Notes under the pieces: generated by a model
The model's database searches: none
What the model was told of the DNA's origin: nothing
Seen by the model: the letters and a program-made list of their open reading frames with translations, nothing else
Sequence record: OP172796.1
Length of the DNA: 64,000 bases
Reading direction: 5' to 3' (one strand)
DNA from: Escherichia phage EF202P1
Made by a program: the position numbers and the translations under genes
Part shown: positions 14,563 through 36,198 of the stretch, one piece after another
Numbering within the stretch: position 1 is the first letter of the stretch
Layout: every line of letters begins with the position of its first letter

Positions 14563-15120
14563 ATGAGATATTTGAAGTATGCTTCATGGATTTTCTTAGC
14601 TTTGTTAGAGCCATTTGCAGCAATCTTAGCAGTTATCTTAGCACCTTTCGTAGTTCCATTCTACAGTGAGAAGAAAGGACATCTCCCTTTTGGATTCAGA
14701 TGGATGGAGACATATGATAACCCAATTGATGGTGATGAAGGCCACGTTAAAAGATGGGCTAAGATTAGAAAGATTGGTAAGCTTGGTGTCTATATGCAGA
14801 GAGTTGGTTGGCTCTGGAGAAACAAAGCTTATAACTTCTCTTACCATGTGTTAGGAAGAGATGTAAAAGATGTTACTAAGTGGAAAGGCAATATCAATGT
14901 AAGTTCTAACCCTGAAGATAATCAGACAGGTTATCTCCTAATGTGGAACAGTAATGCTTGGGGATTATTCGCTTTTGTACCATCAATTAAAATCTTTGGT
15001 AAACAATTCTACTGGAGAATTTATGTTGGGTGGAAACTTAAAAGTGTTGTCCCAGAAGAAAGAGCATTCTCAAGGGAAAGAGTTATGTTGGCATTCTTTA
15101 TTCATCCACTAAGAAAATAA
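14563..15120 (+). CDS. hypothetical membrane-anchored protein (185 aa) embedded in the tRNA cluster
   Basis: N-terminal hydrophobic stretch WIFLALLEPFAAILAVILAPFVVPF; Trp-rich; AGAGG RBS. Confidence 0.65.
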   Translation: MRYLKYASWIFLALLEPFAAILAVILAPFVVPFYSEKKGHLPFGFRWMETYDNPIDGDEGHVKRWAKIRKIGKLGVYMQRVGWLWRNKAYNFSYHVLGRDVKDVTKWKGNINVSSNPEDNQTGYLLMWNSNAWGLFAFVPSIKIFGKQFYWRIYVGWKLKSVVPEERAFSRERVMLAFFIHPLRK

Positions 15121-15128
15121 AGATTTAA

Positions 15129-15204
15129 AGGGGATTAGTTTACAAGGTTAAAACCTCGGTCTTTGAAATCGAAGAAGTTGGTTCAATTCCAACATCCCCC
15201 GCCA
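15129..15204 (+). tRNA. tRNA-Gln (anticodon TTG)
   Basis: Acceptor AGGGGAT/ATCCCCC, anticodon loop CTTTGAA, T-arm GTTGG-TTCAATT-CCAAC, G73, CCA. Confidence 0.6.
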
Positions 15205-15206
15205 AT

Positions 15207-15285
15207 GCTCCATTACTCCAATTGGCAGAGAGGCCAGACTTAAAATCTGTGTTATGTATCGGTTCGAATCCGATATGGAGTACCA
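15207..15285 (+). tRNA. tRNA with Leu-type anticodon (TAA) but short variable arm
   Basis: Acceptor GCTCCAT/ATGGAGT, anticodon loop CTTAAAA, T-arm ATCGG-TTCGAAT-CCGAT, A73, CCA. Confidence 0.5.
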
Positions 15286-15290
15286 AATTT

Positions 15291-15366
15291 AGCGGTATAG
15301 CATAACTGGCAATGCAGCAGTCTCTGAAGCTGTCTTATTAAGGTTCAAATCCTTATGCCGCTGCCA
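15291..15366 (+). tRNA. tRNA-Gln-like (anticodon CTG; register uncertain)
   Basis: Acceptor AGCGGTA/TGCCGCT, D-arm GCAT-AACTGGCA-ATGC, loop CTCTGAA with wobble-paired stem, T-arm TAAGG-TTCAAAT-CCTTA, G73, CCA. Confidence 0.45.
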
Positions 15367-15397
15367 CTTCTAAGGGTTCTTATGAGAGTCCTTAAAT

Positions 15398-15473
15398 GTG
15401 GCCTTATCATAAAAGGTAATGACCCATGCTGTGAACATGGTCTATACGGGTTCAAATCCCGTAGGTCACCCCA
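15398..15473 (+). tRNA. tRNA-His (anticodon GTG)
   Basis: Acceptor GTGGCCT/AGGTCAC, anticodon arm CCATG-CTGTGAA-CATGG, T-arm ACGGG-TTCAAAT-CCCGT, C73, CCA. Confidence 0.7.
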
Positions 15474-15479
15474 ATTTAT

Positions 15480-15555
15480 AGTCCAAGTAGCTTATATGGT
15501 TAAAGCGCGTGTCTGAAAAACATGAGAAGAGGGTTCAAATCCCACTGGACTACCA
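15480..15555 (+). tRNA. tRNA-Phe (anticodon GAA)
   Basis: Acceptor AGTCCAA/CTGGACT, anticodon loop CTGAAAA, T-loop TTCAAAT, A73, CCA. Confidence 0.6.
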
Positions 15556-15571
15556 ATTTCAAAGGTGCTTA

Positions 15572-16306
15572 ATGAAAGAGATGACAGAACAAGGTAAGGA
15601 GATTTTTAATCTCTTAAAAACCGGTAGAGGGTTTTCTAATCCCCTTATTACTGGTGCAGCAGTTCTAGGTGGAACCGTGGCTGCCTCTACATCACTTGTA
15701 AGCTCTATTAGCTCTGTAACAGACCCTACAATGAAGGATAAGCTCATTGCTGCTGGACTTACAACAGTTCTGCTTAATAGCTTTACAACGAGTCTGACAA
15801 GCACTACATCAACTACTAAGACATTGACAGATTATGGTCAAAAGTCTATTGATGAGTTTTCTTCACGTATGCAGGTAGCAAAAGGCTACTCCAATGTTAT
15901 GGGTGCAGCAGGAGAGCAAGTCGGTTGTACACCATTTAGTGGTATTATGGGTGTTGCTACAGAATATGGTCAAAAAGCTATTGACACAATTAACAGTGCA
16001 CTAGATGGTGTTAATGGTGTATTAAGCGACTTACAAGATGCTATTGACAAAGGTCTTGATACTATTTCTGATTTAGCTAACCAAGCTGTTAGCAAGATTA
16101 ATGAGGGTATCTCAAAGATTACAGCTTATGCAGATGAAGTTGTGCAGATGATTGAAGAAGAAGCTGCCCTTATTGCAGAGTACCTTAAAACGAATATCAA
16201 TGGGTTCTTAGCAGGTATCTTACCAGACTGGTTTGATGATGCTTGTAAAACTGGTGTGATTGACACTATTGCAACACCAGAAATGAAGAACGCATTACAG
16301 AAATAA
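15572..16306 (+). CDS. hypothetical protein (244 aa), Ser/Thr-rich N-terminal region
   Basis: ORF; start moved to ATG 15572 because the longer ORF would overlap tRNA-Phe. Confidence 0.6.
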   Translation: MKEMTEQGKEIFNLLKTGRGFSNPLITGAAVLGGTVAASTSLVSSISSVTDPTMKDKLIAAGLTTVLLNSFTTSLTSTTSTTKTLTDYGQKSIDEFSSRMQVAKGYSNVMGAAGEQVGCTPFSGIMGVATEYGQKAIDTINSALDGVNGVLSDLQDAIDKGLDTISDLANQAVSKINEGISKITAYADEVVQMIEEEAALIAEYLKTNINGFLAGILPDWFDDACKTGVIDTIATPEMKNALQK

Positions 16307-16307
16307 T

Positions 16308-16400
16308 GGAAGATTAACCCTAAAAGGTAAGGGAGCAGTTTGCTAAACTGCCAGTAGCTGAGAAATCGGTGTACCAGTTCAAGTCTGGTATCTTCCTCCA
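16308..16400 (+). tRNA. tRNA-Ser (anticodon GCT), long variable arm
   Basis: Acceptor GGAAGAT/ATCTTCC, anticodon arm GCAGT-TTGCTAA-ACTGC, long variable arm, T-arm ACCAG-TTCAAGT-CTGGT, CCA. Confidence 0.7.
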
Positions 16401-16404
16401 ATTT

Positions 16405-16480
16405 GAATCCGTGACAGAAATGGCTATGTGCCTGTCTGCAAAACAGGTTTATAAGGGTTCGAGTCCCTTCGGATTCTCCA
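16405..16480 (+). tRNA. tRNA-Cys (anticodon GCA)
   Basis: Acceptor GAATCCG/CGGATTC, anticodon arm CCTGT-CTGCAAA-ACAGG, T-loop TTCGAGT, U73, CCA. Confidence 0.7.
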
Positions 16481-24678: not shown

Positions 24679-25076
24679 GGCTCTTAAACAGACACAGCTT
24701 TGTAGTAAAGCGTAAAGTCTCTGAAGACGGTTATTATAATGATGATGGTGATTGGGTAGCTTCACAAGATATTGTAGAGGTTAACTGCAAAGGTAATATC
24801 CAGCCATACATTAAAGGTTCTGTAAAGAACGGTACACAGATTGCTTTACCGGAAGGTATTAGGCTAACCGATACAAGAATCCTATATACCACATATAAAC
24901 TTAGAACTTCAGATGATGTAGAGTGGAATGAGTCTGATATTGTTATGATTGATGGTCATGAGTATGAAGTATTTATGACTATGGATTGGTCACAGCAATT
25001 AGCCCATACGTCCCATTATGAATATATCATTATTAGAAGGGATAAAATGAATGCAGTTAGAAACAGCAGAACTTGA
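24675..25076 (+). CDS. hypothetical head-tail connector region protein (133 aa)
   Basis: ORF, coupled. Confidence 0.5.
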   Translation: MRLLNRHSFVVKRKVSEDGYYNDDGDWVASQDIVEVNCKGNIQPYIKGSVKNGTQIALPEGIRLTDTRILYTTYKLRTSDDVEWNESDIVMIDGHEYEVFMTMDWSQQLAHTSHYEYIIIRRDKMNAVRNSRT

Positions 25077-25650
25077 AAAAGGTCTAGTTAGAACCTTAGT
25101 GGATGTTATTGGTCACAGACTAGCTCGTGATAAGAATAATAGACCAAATGTAATTAGAGCTTACCCTTCTGATAACTCAAATGACAAAGGTTTAAAACCT
25201 GACCAGCCATTTATTACCGTATATTGTCAAGATGCTGCAACACCTTATGGTTGGGTTCTTGATAAGTTTGTTGAGGATGATGTAGTTTGCTACAGAATTG
25301 CTTTTCAGATTCCAGTATTAATTACGGTGAATGGTAAAGGTGCTCACAGTATTATGCTTGAGCTTAAACAACGATTAGAGATGAGTTCAGTCAGAGATTT
25401 AATCCTTGAAGAAACAGGAGCTACAGTATTAGACACTGGAGCAATCCCTAATGATTACACTTATCTCAATACAGATTTCGAAAATTCTGCACCTCTTGTT
25501 GTAACTCTTGTAAAAAACTCAGTCCTGAAAGATGAACGTGGAAGTATTATCGAGCGTGTCATTGTTGATGGTGAGTTAGTTTATGAAGAAGGACAAGAGC
25601 CACCAGAATATATTATCCATCTAGATGTAGACTCCAAAGGGGTAAAATAA
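25051..25650 (+). CDS. hypothetical tail completion/neck protein (199 aa)
   Basis: ORF, coupled. Confidence 0.5.
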   Translation: MQLETAELEKGLVRTLVDVIGHRLARDKNNRPNVIRAYPSDNSNDKGLKPDQPFITVYCQDAATPYGWVLDKFVEDDVVCYRIAFQIPVLITVNGKGAHSIMLELKQRLEMSSVRDLILEETGATVLDTGAIPNDYTYLNTDFENSAPLVVTLVKNSVLKDERGSIIERVIVDGELVYEEGQEPPEYIIHLDVDSKGVK

Positions 25651-27003
25651 ATGTGGAATCCAATTGTTAATGTAGATATTACATTGAACACCGCAGGAAC
25701 TACAAGAGAAGGTTTTGGTTTACCACTATTCTTAGCTTCAACAGATAACTTTGAAGAAAGAGTACGTGGCTACACTTCCTTAACTGAAGTTGCTGAAGAT
25801 TTCGATGAGAATACTGCTGCATATAAGGCTGCTAAACAACTTTGGAGTCAGACTCCTAAAGTAACTCAGCTTTATATTGGTAGACGTGCTATGCAGTACA
25901 CTGTATCAATTCCTGATGCCGTTACCGAAAGTACAGACTACTCGATTACTGTAGCTGCTGGCGGTGGAATTTCTCAACCATACCAGTATACAGCGCAAGA
26001 CTCAGACACTGCTGAAGTAGTGTTGCAACAGTTTAAAACACAGATTGAAGCTGACCCAACAATCAAAGATAAGGTTTCTGTGAACGTAACTGGTAGCAAT
26101 GGTTCTGCCACAATGATTATCACTAAAGCTGGTGACAATGATTTTGTGAAGGTAACCACTACAGCACAGACTGTATCTATTGCAAGCACAACTGCCGATA
26201 CAGCATCAACTGCTCTGGCAGCCATTGAAGCTTATTCTACTGACTGGTATTTCATTGCAGCAGAAGATAGAACTCAACAGTTTGTCCTAGCAATGGCTTC
26301 TGAGATTCAGGCTCGTAAGAAAATCTTCTTCACTGCTAACTCTGATGTATCAGCACTACAAGGTACAGAATTAAACAGTGCAAACGATGTTCCAGCACAG
26401 CTTGCTAAGAGTATGTATACTCGCACAGTTTGCTTGTGGCATCACACAGCAGCAGAAGACTATCCAGAGATGGCATACATTGCTTATGGTGCTCCATACG
26501 ATGCAGGGTCAATTGCTTGGGGTAATGCTCAGTTGACTGGTGTAGCTGCTTCTCTACAGCCAGCTAATAAGAGACCTCTGACAAGTATTCAGAAGTCAGC
26601 TTTAGATGCACGTCACTGTAACTTTATTGACCTTGATGGTGGTGTTCCAGTGGTTCGTAGAGGGATTACTTCTGGTGGGGAATGGATTGATATCATCCGT
26701 GGCGTTGACTGGTTAGAATCAGACCTGAAAACTTCTCTGAGAGACTTGCTAATTAACCAGAAGGGTGGTAAGATTACTTATGATGATACTGGTATTACCC
26801 GTATTCGTCAAGTCATTGAAACCTCTCTACAAAGAGCAGTCAACAGAAACTTCCTGTCATCTTACACAGTTAATGTTCCTAAAGCCTCTCAAGTTGCTTT
26901 GGCAGACAAGAAAGCTCGTATCCTGAAAGACGTTACCTTCGCAGGTATCTTAGCAGGGGCTATCTTGGATGTTGACTTGAAAGGTACAGTGGCTTACGAA
27001 TAA
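25651..27003 (+). CDS. tail sheath protein (putative)
   Basis: 450-aa ORF followed by a ~150-aa ORF, chaperone pair and tape measure (sheath-tube-chaperone-TMP order). Confidence 0.5.
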   Translation: MWNPIVNVDITLNTAGTTREGFGLPLFLASTDNFEERVRGYTSLTEVAEDFDENTAAYKAAKQLWSQTPKVTQLYIGRRAMQYTVSIPDAVTESTDYSITVAAGGGISQPYQYTAQDSDTAEVVLQQFKTQIEADPTIKDKVSVNVTGSNGSATMIITKAGDNDFVKVTTTAQTVSIASTTADTASTALAAIEAYSTDWYFIAAEDRTQQFVLAMASEIQARKKIFFTANSDVSALQGTELNSANDVPAQLAKSMYTRTVCLWHHTAAEDYPEMAYIAYGAPYDAGSIAWGNAQLTGVAASLQPANKRPLTSIQKSALDARHCNFIDLDGGVPVVRRGITSGGEWIDIIRGVDWLESDLKTSLRDLLINQKGGKITYDDTGITRIRQVIETSLQRAVNRNFLSSYTVNVPKASQVALADKKARILKDVTFAGILAGAILDVDLKGTVAYE

Positions 27004-27018
27004 TAGAGGTAAATTGGA

Positions 27019-27465
27019 ATGGCTATGTATCAGCAATATTCCCCTAAAGACGTTGTGTGTAGCTGGAATGGTATTGCCATTGAAGGCTTTGCCCCAGACT
27101 CATTCTTACGTCTACAGAGAACATCACCACTTGTGACACCAGTTGTTGGTGCAGGTGGTCAAGTTGCTCTGACTAGAAATGCAGACAAGACAGGTACTAT
27201 TGAGATTGAGCTAATGCAGACTTCTCTCTCTAATCAGATGCTTTCTGCAATTCAAGCTAAACAAGACAATATGGAACTTGAAGAAGATATCTCTTCTAAC
27301 TTCGTAATCTACGACCCATCAGGCTCTGTTCTGGCAACTGGTATCAATGCTTGGTTGCAGGAACTACCACAGATTGAACTTGGTCGTGACCAGAACTCTA
27401 AAACTTGGATTTTTGGTTGTGAGAAGCTAGACTACACTTCTACAATTCCAGCGTCAAGTGTTTAA
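27019..27465 (+). CDS. tail tube protein (putative)
   Basis: 148-aa ORF between sheath-like gene and chaperones; followed by terminator. Confidence 0.5.
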   Translation: MAMYQQYSPKDVVCSWNGIAIEGFAPDSFLRLQRTSPLVTPVVGAGGQVALTRNADKTGTIEIELMQTSLSNQMLSAIQAKQDNMELEEDISSNFVIYDPSGSVLATGINAWLQELPQIELGRDQNSKTWIFGCEKLDYTSTIPASSV

Positions 27466-27477
27466 TAAATCCTATAA

Positions 27478-27509
27478 GGGGGAGACTTTAAAAGGTCTTC
27501 CCCTTTTTT
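27478..27509 (+). terminator. rho-independent terminator
   Basis: GGGGGAGAC...GTCTTCCCC hairpin plus T6. Confidence 0.65.
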
Positions 27510-27538
27510 GTTTCTTTTAAAAGTATTAAGGAATCACA

Positions 27539-27937
27539 ATGAAAACAGAATCTAGAGTAATTAATGGTAAGAAAGTAAATATTGTTCTGCTTGGGGCAAG
27601 AGATGGTATTAAGATGTCTATGAAGTTGGGTAAAATTGTTGTTCCAACTTTTGCACAGATGCTATCAAGTCTGACTGATAAAGATAAGAAAGAAGCTCCA
27701 ATGGTTCCATTTAAAGAACTTGTTGAAGCTTGTTTTGACAGAATTGAAGAAATTAACCTTGAAGAAATGGCTACCCTATTATTTCAAGGGGCAACTGTTG
27801 ATGACTTCCCACTTAATATTGATACATACTTCCAAGCAAACTATGGTGAATTTATTGATTACTTAGCATTTGCGCTGGAGGCAAATTTCGGAAGTTTTTT
27901 CGAAGCAAGCATTTTCAAAAGCCTAACTTCTCAGTAA
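27539..27937 (+). CDS. tail assembly chaperone (G-like)
   Basis: ORF immediately upstream of tape measure; slippery T_TTT_TTC at 27895-27901. Confidence 0.55.
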   Translation: MKTESRVINGKKVNIVLLGARDGIKMSMKLGKIVVPTFAQMLSSLTDKDKKEAPMVPFKELVEACFDRIEEINLEEMATLLFQGATVDDFPLNIDTYFQANYGEFIDYLAFALEANFGSFFEASIFKSLTSQ

Positions 27938-27939
27938 AC

Positions 27940-28178
27940 ATGGGTAACACTCTACAGACACCACTAACTGATGCTGCTGTAGAGGCAACCTATGAAGAAG
28001 CAGACGAGATGAAATTTGTGCTTGCTATTTATGGTATGGAAGGGTGTAAAGAAACACTTGACCAACTCTTTGCTATGACATTCTCTGATTTATTATCATT
28101 GAGACAATTTCTTGAAATTCAGAGGTCGTATAAAGAGGAAATTGCTTACAACGAACTTAGAAGAGCAGGAAAAATGTA

Positions 28179-28179
<1 letters not shown>
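27940..28179 (+). CDS. tail assembly chaperone frameshift extension (GT-like); probably expressed as a 27539-28179 fusion by -1 frameshift
   Basis: ORF lies in the -1 frame relative to 27539-27937 and is continuous with it after a slip at 27895-27901. Confidence 0.5.

Positions 28180-36198
<8,019 letters not shown>

What the first reader, a model, noticed from the sequence alone, without database searches (positions are those of the whole stretch)
27895..27901. Canonical -1 programmed frameshift site (T_TTT_TTC) joining the two tail-chaperone ORFs
ORF 27940-28179 lies in the -1 frame relative to 27539-27937. The heptamer T TTT TTC at 27895-27901 is in the X_XXY_YYZ register of the upstream frame. 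A -1 slip there reads through into the downstream ORF to 28179, giving the G/GT-type fusion conserved upstream of tape-measure genes in tailed phages.
Basis: partly seen in the sequence, partly recalled or inferred. Interest (0 to 1): 0.4.

Follow-up and report, generated by a model that had tools for sequence, protein, structure and literature searches.

The report
Tail-chaperone frameshift site in Felix O1-like phage
The flagged T_TTT_TTC is very probably a real -1 ribosomal frameshift site that joins the two tail-assembly-chaperone reading frames of a Felix O1-like phage, but it is an ordinary example of a well-known phage device already annotated in sister phages.

Summary
The window is a Felixounavirus (98.6% identical to Shigella phage Z31). 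ORF1 (27539-27937, Pfam Phage_TAC_15) and ORF2 (27940-28179) lie between the tail tube and tape-measure genes. ORF2 is in the -1 frame, which is open from 27859 to 28179. T_TTT_TTC (27895-27901) is in X_XXY_YYZ register.

Comparative evidence is strong. All 19 lineages (<70% identity, GC 35-65%) keep an in-register T_TTT_TTY at the S-F-F motif (chance about 2e-18 from local codon usage). In three lineages a -1-frame stop abuts the heptamer. The ORF2 ATG is not conserved. A Buttiauxella relative encodes the fusion as one separate ORF that aligns across the predicted junction, and there S-F-F is written non-slippery (TCA TTC TTC).

No 3' hairpin follows the site. A GGAGG sits 13 nt upstream and is preferentially conserved.

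This is the lambda G/GT-type frameshift. It was already stated for Felix O1-like phages Moogle and Mijalis. The deposited Mordin and Michonne fusion protein is exactly what a slip at the homologous heptamer predicts.

No experimental proof was found, and transcriptional slippage on T6 cannot be excluded from sequence alone. Verdict: supported, already known, low interest.

The parts
27476..27515 (+). Intrinsic terminator between the tail tube gene and the chaperone genes. This is context: it probably lowers transcription into the chaperone and tape-measure genes.
   Evidence: 13-pair stem followed by a T run. The same feature is annotated as a rho-independent terminator in phage AYO145A and Mordin.
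27539..27937 (+). ORF1, the G-like tail assembly chaperone (132 aa). It is the zero-frame product.
   Evidence: Pfam PF21822 Phage_TAC_15, E = 1.2e-19. phrog_1613 tail assembly chaperone, E = 8e-49. An AAGGA Shine-Dalgarno sequence lies at 27528-27532.
27877..27881 (+). Internal Shine-Dalgarno-like GGAGG, 13 nt 5' of the heptamer. It is a candidate upstream frameshift stimulator.
   Evidence: Sequence. The Glu codon inside it is GAG in 16 of 19 lineages against 8.5 expected from local codon usage (P = 2e-4). GAGG is present in 14 of the 19 lineages. The review PMC5009743 gives 9-14 nt as the stimulatory spacing for -1 shifts. The function was not tested.
27883..27889 (+). Second in-register heptamer, A_AAT_TTC. 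It is not conserved and is at most a minor alternative shift site.
   Evidence: It reads AAACTTC in most Felixounavirus relatives.
27895..27901 (+). Slippery heptamer T_TTT_TTC, the proposed -1 shift site. tRNA-Phe would occupy both the P and A sites.
   Evidence: Register. Conserved in all 19 lineages below 70% identity (P about 2e-18) and in L109 and L110. U_UU.U_UU.C is shift-prone in E. coli without stimulators (PMC4066793).
27895..27937 (+). Stretch read in two frames: the G C-terminus (FFEASIFKSLTSQ*) and the GT linker (FFRSKHFQKPNFSV).
   Evidence: Bases 27892-27924 are almost invariant across Ounavirinae, including relatives with only 39-47% protein identity.
27901..28179 (+). T segment, read in the -1 frame after the slip (92 aa). 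Together with 27539-27901 it gives the 213-aa GT fusion.
   Evidence: phrog_4963 tail assembly chaperone, E = 3e-55 for the ORF2 part. The T-like domain is conserved in all relatives. The single-ORF homologue in L108 aligns across the junction.
27940..27942 (+). ATG that the ORF list and most GenBank records use as the ORF2 start. It has no Shine-Dalgarno sequence and is not conserved.
   Evidence: no GGAG or AGGA upstream. It codes Ile in L012, a 99%-identical phage. There is no Met in L031-L033. No gene is called for this segment in L109 and L110.
27939..27994 (+). Local hairpin that pairs the ORF2 AUG. It is too far from the heptamer (37 nt) to be a canonical stimulator.
   Evidence: -24.7 kcal/mol for 27895-27995, z = -2.76. 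It is not conserved across Ounavirinae and shows no covariation.
28179..30410 (+). Tape measure protein gene. Its ATG overlaps the GT stop codon (TAATG).
   Evidence: Pfam TMP_3, E = 2e-17. phrog_4036 over the full length.

Best explanation
This is a lambda G/GT-type programmed -1 ribosomal frameshift in the tail-assembly-chaperone gene of a Felix O1-like myovirus.

Most ribosomes translate ORF1 to its stop at 27937 and make the 132-aa chaperone. A minority slip back one base when AGU is in the E site, UUU in the P site and UUC in the A site. Both tRNA-Phe(GAA) molecules re-pair with UUU UUU. Translation then continues in the -1 frame through CGA to 28179, giving a 213-aa fusion that carries the T domain.

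By analogy with lambda, the G part binds the tape measure protein and the T part recruits the tube protein. The two products would be needed in a fixed, skewed ratio, and neither would end up in the virion.

The slippery heptamer is the main determinant. A GGAGG 13 nt upstream may stimulate the slip by pairing with 16S rRNA. There is no 3' structure at stimulatory distance.

Shown here: the frames, the register, the conservation and the single-ORF homologue. Inferred: that the slip occurs, its efficiency, and the roles of the two products.
For: Anatomy:
- Frames, register and the open -1 frame are as described.
- Gene order is sheath, tube, TAC, T, tape measure, with Pfam Phage_TAC_15 and TMP_3 hits.

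Conservation at synonymous sites:
- In 19 lineages below 70% identity (GC 35-65%), the Ser codon is AGT or TCT, two different codon families, but always ends in T.
- The first Phe codon is always TTT. The probability from each locus's own codon usage is about 2e-18.
- L109 and L110, which were found by protein search, also keep AGT TTT TTC.

The shift window is pinned:
- A -1-frame stop directly abuts the heptamer in L051, L065 and L109.
- In L055 the G stop lies only 36 nt downstream.

ORF2 has no conserved start:
- Ile replaces Met in the 99%-identical L012, and L031-L033 have no Met.
- High-GC relatives have overlaps of 126-141 nt.
- No gene was called for the T segment in L109 and L110.

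Natural control:
- In Buttiauxella noackiae (L108), a separate 201-aa ORF encodes a G-like domain plus a T-like domain.
- It aligns with the predicted window fusion straight across the junction (E = 5e-13).
- There the G gene writes S-F-F as TCA TTC TTC, and the -1 frame is closed at that point.

Supporting literature and records:
- U_UU.U_UU.C and U_UU.U_UU.U are shift-prone in E. coli even without stimulators, and are used by IS elements (PMC4066793).
- The fusion I predicted for Mordin from a slip at the homologous heptamer is identical to the deposited proteins ALA06885.1 and YP_009177317.1.
- The frameshift is stated for Moogle and Mijalis.
Against: - I found no experimental detection of the fusion protein in any Felix O1-like phage (literature searches).
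- No stable or conserved RNA structure lies 5-9 nt downstream of the heptamer, so efficiency may be low.
- Most of the distant loci were retrieved with amino-acid patterns, one of which contained S-F-F. Relatives with other shift sites could have been missed. In an unbiased set of 145 family representatives only about 80% have Phe at each position, and 59 have SFF.
- Lineages are not fully independent, so the P values are rough.
- An ATG 3 nt after the ORF1 stop could also allow some coupled re-initiation of a free 79-aa product in this particular phage.
Confidence: 0.88

Rival explanations
1. There is no recoding. ORF2 is translated on its own from ATG 27940 by termination-reinitiation after the ORF1 stop. 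G and a free 79-aa T protein then act as separate polypeptides.
For: - The ATG lies 3 nt after the TAA of ORF1.
- Nearly all Felixounavirus GenBank records annotate two separate CDS.
- A Met exists near this position in the Felixounavirus, Suspvirus and Mooglevirus relatives.
Against: - No Shine-Dalgarno sequence lies upstream of 27940, and a hairpin pairs the AUG.
- The Met is Ile in L012. It is absent in L031-L033, L037-L043, L109 and L110.
- The T domain begins well inside the G ORF in the high-GC relatives.
- This model does not explain the conserved heptamer at synonymous sites, or the -1 frame being kept open exactly from the heptamer.
- The single-ORF homologue also covers the linker that lies upstream of the ATG.
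Confidence: 0.04
2. The frame change is made by RNA polymerase, not by the ribosome. Slippage on the T6 run inserts one extra U in a fraction of transcripts, and normal translation of those transcripts gives the same GT protein.
For: - The site is a homopolymer, with a run of 6 T in most relatives and 7 or 8 in some.
- A genome record with 7 T (phage CL1) encodes exactly the fusion as one ORF.
- The protein product would be indistinguishable from that of ribosomal slippage.
Against: - Bacterial transcriptional slippage is documented for runs of about 9 A or T (review PMC5009743). Six is short.
- All 31 IMG/VR contigs have exactly 6 T. Of 254 GenBank records, only CL1 matched the 7-T query at 99% identity or more, and the next 11 listed all have 6 T.
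- The conserved upstream GAGG at 13 nt, and the hairpin 8 nt downstream in high-GC relatives, are ribosomal stimulators and would have no role in polymerase slippage.
Confidence: 0.06
3. The shift happens mainly at the other in-register heptamer, A_AAT_TTC (27883-27889), and the T_TTT_TTC is secondary.
For: - It is in register and inside the -1-open stretch.
- R_RR.U_UU.Y motifs are reported as shift-prone in E. coli (PMC4066793).
- Some high-GC relatives also have it.
Against: - It reads AAACTTC in most Felixounavirus relatives and is absent in most lineages.
- In L051, L065 and L109 the -1 frame is closed upstream of T_TTT_TTY.
- P-site tRNA-Asn would re-pair poorly on AAA (inference).
Confidence: 0.02

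Closest known systems
Tape-measure chaperone frameshift annotated in Mooglevirus phages (Citrobacter phages Moogle, Mordin, Michonne, Mijalis; subfamily Ounavirinae)
   Same: - These are orthologous genes with 74-81% protein identity.
- The nucleotide sequence around the site is the same: AAGTTTTTTCGA[A/G]GCAAGCATTTTCAAAAGCCT.
- A -1 slip at the heptamer reproduces the deposited 212-aa fusion proteins exactly.
- The frameshift is stated in the genome announcements.
   Different: - They belong to a different genus.
- In Felixounavirus records, including the Felix O1 reference, the two ORFs are deposited as separate CDS.
- The prediction is not experimentally verified in either genus, as far as I could find.
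Phage lambda G/GT -1 frameshift (Levin et al. 1993; Xu, Hendrix and Duda 2004, 2013, 2014, as summarised in PMC5009743)
   Same: - The position is the same, between the major tail gene and the tape measure gene.
[quoted passage not shown]
- No strong RNA structure is required (own knowledge for lambda).
   Different: - Lambda uses G_GGA_AAG (own knowledge); this phage uses T_TTT_TTC.
- The protein family is different (Phage_TAC_15).
- This is a contractile-tail phage.
- The ratio of the two products is unknown here, against 30:1 in lambda.
Phage P2 E / E+E' tail chaperone frameshift (Christie et al. 2002; own knowledge, not checked here)
   Same: It is a myovirus, the -1 frameshift lies on a T-rich heptamer (T_TTT_TTG), and the genes sit just upstream of the tape measure gene.
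   Different: The last base of the heptamer differs, and the protein family is different.
E. coli dnaX and IS-element -1 frameshift cassettes
   Same: - A heptamer plus an upstream Shine-Dalgarno-like element 9-14 nt away (PMC5009743). Here it is GGAGG at 13 nt.
- U_UU.U_UU.C is among the heptamers used by IS elements (PMC4066793).
   Different: - dnaX and most IS elements also use a 3' hairpin or pseudoknot, which is absent here.
- The efficiency is presumably much lower than the 50% seen in dnaX.
- The stimulatory role of the GGAGG is untested.

Membership tests
G/GT-type tail assembly chaperone frameshift (Xu, Hendrix and Duda 2004) | Two overlapping ORFs lie immediately between the major tail (tube) gene and the tape measure gene. 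| tested here: met
   The order is sheath 25651-27003, tube 27019-27465, ORF1, ORF2, tape measure 28179-30410.
G/GT-type tail assembly chaperone frameshift (Xu, Hendrix and Duda 2004) | The upstream ORF encodes a tail assembly chaperone. | tested here: met
   Pfam PF21822 Phage_TAC_15, E = 1.2e-19, 71.5 bits against a cut-off of 22. phrog_1613, E = 8e-49.
G/GT-type tail assembly chaperone frameshift (Xu, Hendrix and Duda 2004) | The downstream ORF is in a shifted frame that is open across the end of the upstream ORF. | tested here: met
   The -1 frame is open from 27859 to 28179. The +1 frame is open for only 6 codons.
G/GT-type tail assembly chaperone frameshift (Xu, Hendrix and Duda 2004) | A slippery sequence lies in the overlap, in the register of the upstream frame. 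| tested here: met
   T_TTT_TTC at 27895-27901.
G/GT-type tail assembly chaperone frameshift (Xu, Hendrix and Duda 2004) | The slippery site and the two-frame architecture are conserved among homologues beyond what the protein sequence requires. | tested here: met
   19 of 19 lineages, P about 2e-18. Also L109 and L110. The slippery codons are lost where GT is a separate gene (L108).
G/GT-type tail assembly chaperone frameshift (Xu, Hendrix and Duda 2004) | The downstream segment has no independent, conserved translation start. | tested here: met
   No Shine-Dalgarno sequence. The ATG is lost in L012 and absent in L031-L033, L037-L043, L109 and L110. This window itself does have an ATG.
G/GT-type tail assembly chaperone frameshift (Xu, Hendrix and Duda 2004) | The fusion protein is made at a low fixed ratio to G, both products are needed for tail assembly, and both are absent from virions. 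| not testable with these tools
   This needs protein analysis of infected cells and genetics. No such data were found in the literature searches.
Shine-Dalgarno- and hairpin-stimulated bacterial -1 frameshift (dnaX / IS type) | An SD-like sequence lies 9-14 nt 5' of the shift site. | tested here: inconclusive
   GGAGG at 27877-27881, with a 13-nt spacer. GAG is favoured in 16 of 19 lineages against 8.5 expected (P = 2e-4). It is absent in L031-L033 and L063, and its function is untested.
Shine-Dalgarno- and hairpin-stimulated bacterial -1 frameshift (dnaX / IS type) | A stable hairpin or pseudoknot lies 5-9 nt 3' of the shift site. | tested here: not met
   The 44 nt downstream fold at -2.5 kcal/mol, z = +1.13. 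The 55 nt downstream fold at -3.4 kcal/mol, z = +0.71. The consensus fold across Ounavirinae is -1.07 kcal/mol with no covariation. High-GC relatives do have such a hairpin.
Programmed transcriptional slippage | A homopolymer run long enough for RNA polymerase realignment, about 9 A or T in bacteria. | tested here: not met
   The run is 6 T here and in all 31 IMG/VR relatives. The threshold comes from the review PMC5009743.

The most novel reading that the evidence does not exclude
The most novel reading not excluded has three parts.
- Across the whole Phage_TAC_15 family, the shift cassette may be a conserved module: an internal Shine-Dalgarno-like GAGG 13 nt upstream plus T_TTT_TTY. Lineage-specific 3' elements would be added to it: a hairpin in high-GC phages, and an almost invariant 33-nt block (27892-27924) in Ounavirinae. 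That block might act as an unstructured 3' stimulator rather than merely being constrained by coding in two frames.
- The frameshift can be replaced in evolution by duplication into separate G and GT genes, as in the Buttiauxella element.
- The phage's own tRNA-Phe(GAA) could tune the shift.
Probability: 0.15. Interest if true: 0.4.

Novelty: already known. Interest (0 to 1): 0.15.

Why it matters
It matters mainly for annotation. Most Felixounavirus records, including the Felix O1 reference, list two separate chaperone genes. They should instead carry a joined CDS, join(27539..27901,27901..28179) in window coordinates.

Felix O1-like phages are used for Salmonella and E. coli typing, biocontrol, therapy and cell-free synthesis. 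Anyone recoding or refactoring these genomes must keep AGT TTT TTC, and probably the upstream GAG G, intact.

The Buttiauxella locus offers a ready-made design for separating G and GT into two genes. Biologically, the site is one more instance of a textbook mechanism.

Tried and rejected
- **3' stimulatory structure.** Folding the 44, 55 and 101 nt downstream, and a consensus fold of eight Ounavirinae sequences, found nothing at stimulatory distance. The only stable hairpin (27939-27994) starts 37 nt downstream and is not conserved.
- **Related loci in bacterial genomes.** The pattern scan found none. The Buttiauxella locus came from the protein look-up instead.
- **Solved structures.** The fusion protein has no sequence relative in the PDB.
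- **Experimental evidence.** Two literature searches found only genome-announcement statements and no experimental evidence of the fusion in Felix O1-like phages. PhageMaP on Bas63 says nothing about these genes.
- **Length variation of the T run.** There is none in 31 IMG/VR contigs. One GenBank record of 254, phage CL1, has 7 T. I treat it as a probable homopolymer sequencing or assembly error, not as evidence for a fused-gene variant.
- **A_AAT_TTC as the real site.** Rejected for lack of conservation.
- **Family-wide claim.** An unbiased HMMER search shows the FF dipeptide in most but not all family representatives. The DNA of those proteins could not be fetched, so I make no claim that every Phage_TAC_15 member uses this site.

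Full report
**What the window is.** The region 25000-31000 is 98.6% identical to Shigella phage Z31. It matches 297 phage records, nearly all of them Felix O1-like myoviruses (Ounavirinae, Felixounavirus). Around the finding the + strand carries:
- a tail sheath gene (25651-27003; DUF3383, phrog_205);
- a tube gene (27019-27465; KPP10_Orf10, phrog_280);
- a strong intrinsic terminator (27476-27515);
- ORF1 (27539-27937, 132 aa);
- ORF2 (27940-28179, 79 aa);
- the tape measure gene (28179-30410; TMP_3, phrog_4036).

ORF1 is a Pfam Phage_TAC_15 tail assembly chaperone (E = 1.2e-19). ORF2 matches phrog_4963, which is also labelled tail assembly chaperone.

**Checking the observation.** The sequence is as described.
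- ORF2 is in the -1 frame of ORF1.
- The -1 frame is open from 27859 to 28179.
- Bases 27895-27901 read TTTTTTC, with zero-frame codons AGT TTT TTC. That is the T_TTT_TTC register.
- A -1 slip gives a 213-aa protein, join(27539..27901,27901..28179), whose stop overlaps the tape-measure ATG (TAATG).

In-register X_XXY_YYZ heptamers occur at 0.0034 per codon in the window's long ORFs. TTTTTTC itself is depleted in the window, with 10 found against 27 expected. A second in-register heptamer, A_AAT_TTC (27883-27889), exists, but it is AAACTTC in most close relatives.

**Comparative evidence.** I collected 31 close and 37 distant relatives from IMG/VR and three more through protein look-ups. Clustered at 70% identity they form 19 lineages. 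Protein identity to the window goes down to 23%, and GC content ranges from 35 to 65%.
- Every lineage has an in-register T_TTT_TT[C/T] at an invariant Ser-Phe-Phe.
- The Ser codon is AGT in some lineages and TCT in others, but it always ends in T. The first Phe codon is always TTT.
- From each locus's own codon usage, the chance of this is about 2e-18. Because the lineages share ancestry, that figure is only rough.
- In L051, L065 and L109 a -1-frame stop codon directly abuts the heptamer. In L055 the zero-frame stop is only 36 nt downstream. The permitted shift window therefore collapses onto the heptamer.

The ORF2 ATG is not conserved.
- It is Ile in L012, a 99%-identical phage.
- There is no Met in L031-L033, L037-L043, L109 or L110.
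- High-GC relatives overlap by 126-141 nt.
- Gene callers left the T segment uncalled in L109 and L110.

**A natural control.** In the Buttiauxella noackiae chromosome (L108), the ORF1 homologue is followed by a separate 201-aa gene with its own ATG.
- That protein has a second TAC_15-like domain, 31% identical to its neighbour, followed by a T-like domain.
- It aligns with the fusion predicted for the window straight across the junction: ENFGVFLSFVVKPFVKPDF against ANFGSF--FRSKHFQKPNF (E = 5e-13).
- There the upstream gene writes Ser-Phe-Phe as TCA TTC TTC, and the -1 frame is closed at that point.

So where the fusion is encoded directly, the slippery codons are gone although the amino acids remain. 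This argues that the T run is kept for recoding and not for coding.

**How it most likely works.** Both slippery codons are read by tRNA-Phe(GAA). After a one-base backward slip, both tRNAs face UUU. Sharma et al. (PMC4066793) list U_UU.U_UU.C and U_UU.U_UU.U among heptamers that shift in E. coli even without stimulators. They place H_HH.U_UU.Y among the most efficient motifs, and IS elements use U_UU.U_UU.C.

I found no stimulatory RNA structure.
- The 44-55 nt after the heptamer fold no better than shuffled sequence.
- A consensus fold across Ounavirinae is essentially unstructured and shows no covariation.
- The one stable hairpin (27939-27994) begins 37 nt downstream. It pairs the ORF2 AUG and is not conserved.

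Upstream, GGAGG (27877-27881) lies 13 nt before the heptamer. That is inside the 9-14 nt range reported for Shine-Dalgarno stimulation of -1 shifts (PMC5009743). The Glu codon inside it is GAG in 16 of 19 lineages, against 8.5 expected (P = 2e-4). This is suggestive but untested.

High-GC relatives (L057, L062, L067) do carry a 9-bp hairpin starting 8 nt after the heptamer. Stimulators therefore seem to differ between lineages while the heptamer stays the same.

**Rivals.**
- *Independent initiation of ORF2* is possible in this phage, because an ATG lies 3 nt after the stop. It explains neither the conserved heptamer nor the loss of the ATG elsewhere.
- *Transcriptional slippage* would give the same protein and cannot be excluded from sequence alone. 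However, six T is short compared with the runs of about nine known to slip in bacteria, and the flanking ribosome-type stimulators would have no role.
- *The one record with seven T* (phage CL1) encodes the fusion as a single ORF. Of 254 GenBank records, only CL1 matched the 7-T query at 99% identity or more, and the next 11 listed all have 6 T. None of the 31 IMG/VR contigs has seven T. It is probably a homopolymer error.

**Comparison with what is known.** This is the G/GT-type frameshift described for lambda and generalised by Xu, Hendrix and Duda (2004), summarised in PMC5009743.

It has already been reported for Felix O1-like phages.
- The Moogle and Mijalis genome announcements state it.
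- Mordin carries a joined CDS.
- The fusion I built for Mordin from a slip at the homologous, sequence-identical heptamer is exactly the deposited protein ALA06885.1 / YP_009177317.1.

Felixounavirus records, including Felix O1 itself, name both ORFs as chaperones but deposit them as separate CDS. I found no experimental demonstration in this phage group.

**Limits.**
- Most distant loci were retrieved with amino-acid patterns, one of which included S-F-F. This does not bias codon choice, but it could hide relatives with other shift sites.
- An unbiased search of 1.84 billion representatives shows Phe at each of the two positions in about 80% of 145 family members. The motif is SFF in 59, DFF in 20 and SFL in 14. 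Their DNA could not be examined.

**Verdict.** The mechanism is a standard heptamer-driven -1 frameshift, possibly helped by an upstream Shine-Dalgarno-like element. Confidence is about 0.88. It is already known, and the value is mainly in correcting annotation. Interest is 0.15.

Noticed in passing
L108:4001-4986 (Buttiauxella noackiae JPRU01000001.1, 1021942-1030322): A chromosomal relative has two tandem chaperone genes instead of a frameshift: a 126-aa G homologue with non-slippery TCA TTC TTC, and a separate 201-aa gene encoding a diverged G-like domain fused to a T-like domain. The frameshift appears to have been replaced by duplication. No sheath-sized gene is called upstream of it in the locus.
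   Followed up: partly
window 27877-27881: An internal Shine-Dalgarno-like GGAGG lies 13 nt 5' of the heptamer. The GAG codon within it is preferred in 16 of 19 lineages against 8.5 expected (P = 2e-4). It is a possible upstream frameshift stimulator.
   Followed up: partly
window 27892-27924: A 33-nt block, AAGTTTTTTCGA[A/G]GCAAGCATTTTCAAAA[G/A]CCT, is almost invariant across Ounavirinae, including Erwinia-phage-like contigs with only 39-47% chaperone identity. Coding in two frames can explain it, but a role as a 3' element is not excluded.
   Followed up: partly
window 27883-27889: A second in-register heptamer, A_AAT_TTC, lies inside the -1-open stretch. It is a synonymous variant (AAT against AAC) present in only a minority of relatives.
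   Followed up: yes
window 27939-27994: A stable hairpin (z = -2.76) pairs the ORF2 AUG. In L012 the ATG-to-ATA change turns a G-U pair of this stem into A-U. The hairpin is not conserved outside the genus.
   Followed up: partly
window 27476-27515: A strong intrinsic terminator (13-pair stem plus T run) lies between the tube gene and the chaperone gene. It probably attenuates transcription into the chaperone and tape-measure genes.
   Followed up: no
window 11178-16480: A cluster of 25 tRNA genes. It includes tRNA-Phe(GAA) at 15480-15555, which reads both slippery codons, tRNA-Ser(GCU) at 16308-16400, which reads the AGU before them, and tRNA-Arg(ACG) at 14467-14542, which reads the first -1-frame codon CGA. 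Whether the phage tRNA-Phe affects slippage is unknown.
   Followed up: no
L035:715-721 (Escherichia phage CL1, OK040806.1): This record has seven T instead of six, so the chaperone is deposited as one 213-aa ORF identical to the predicted fusion. Of 254 GenBank records, only CL1 matched the 7-T query at 99% identity or more. It is probably a homopolymer sequencing or assembly error.
   Followed up: yes
L057:1882-1915, L062, L067 (high-GC ~42-kb phage contigs): Distant relatives have a 9-bp GC-rich hairpin (CCGCGAGCG...CGCUCGCGG) starting 8 nt after the heptamer. That is a canonical 3' stimulator, and it is absent from the Felix O1 group.
   Followed up: partly
GenBank records seen: Three annotation oddities. 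ORF1 or ORF2 is labelled 'head closure protein' in some records (C600M2, SUT_S920, SUT_S820). Near-identical Felix O1-type sequence is deposited as 'Campylobacter phage A132' (MG065664.1). A 132-aa copy is attributed to Staphylococcus hyicus (WP_252560994.1). These are probably mislabelling or contamination.
   Followed up: no
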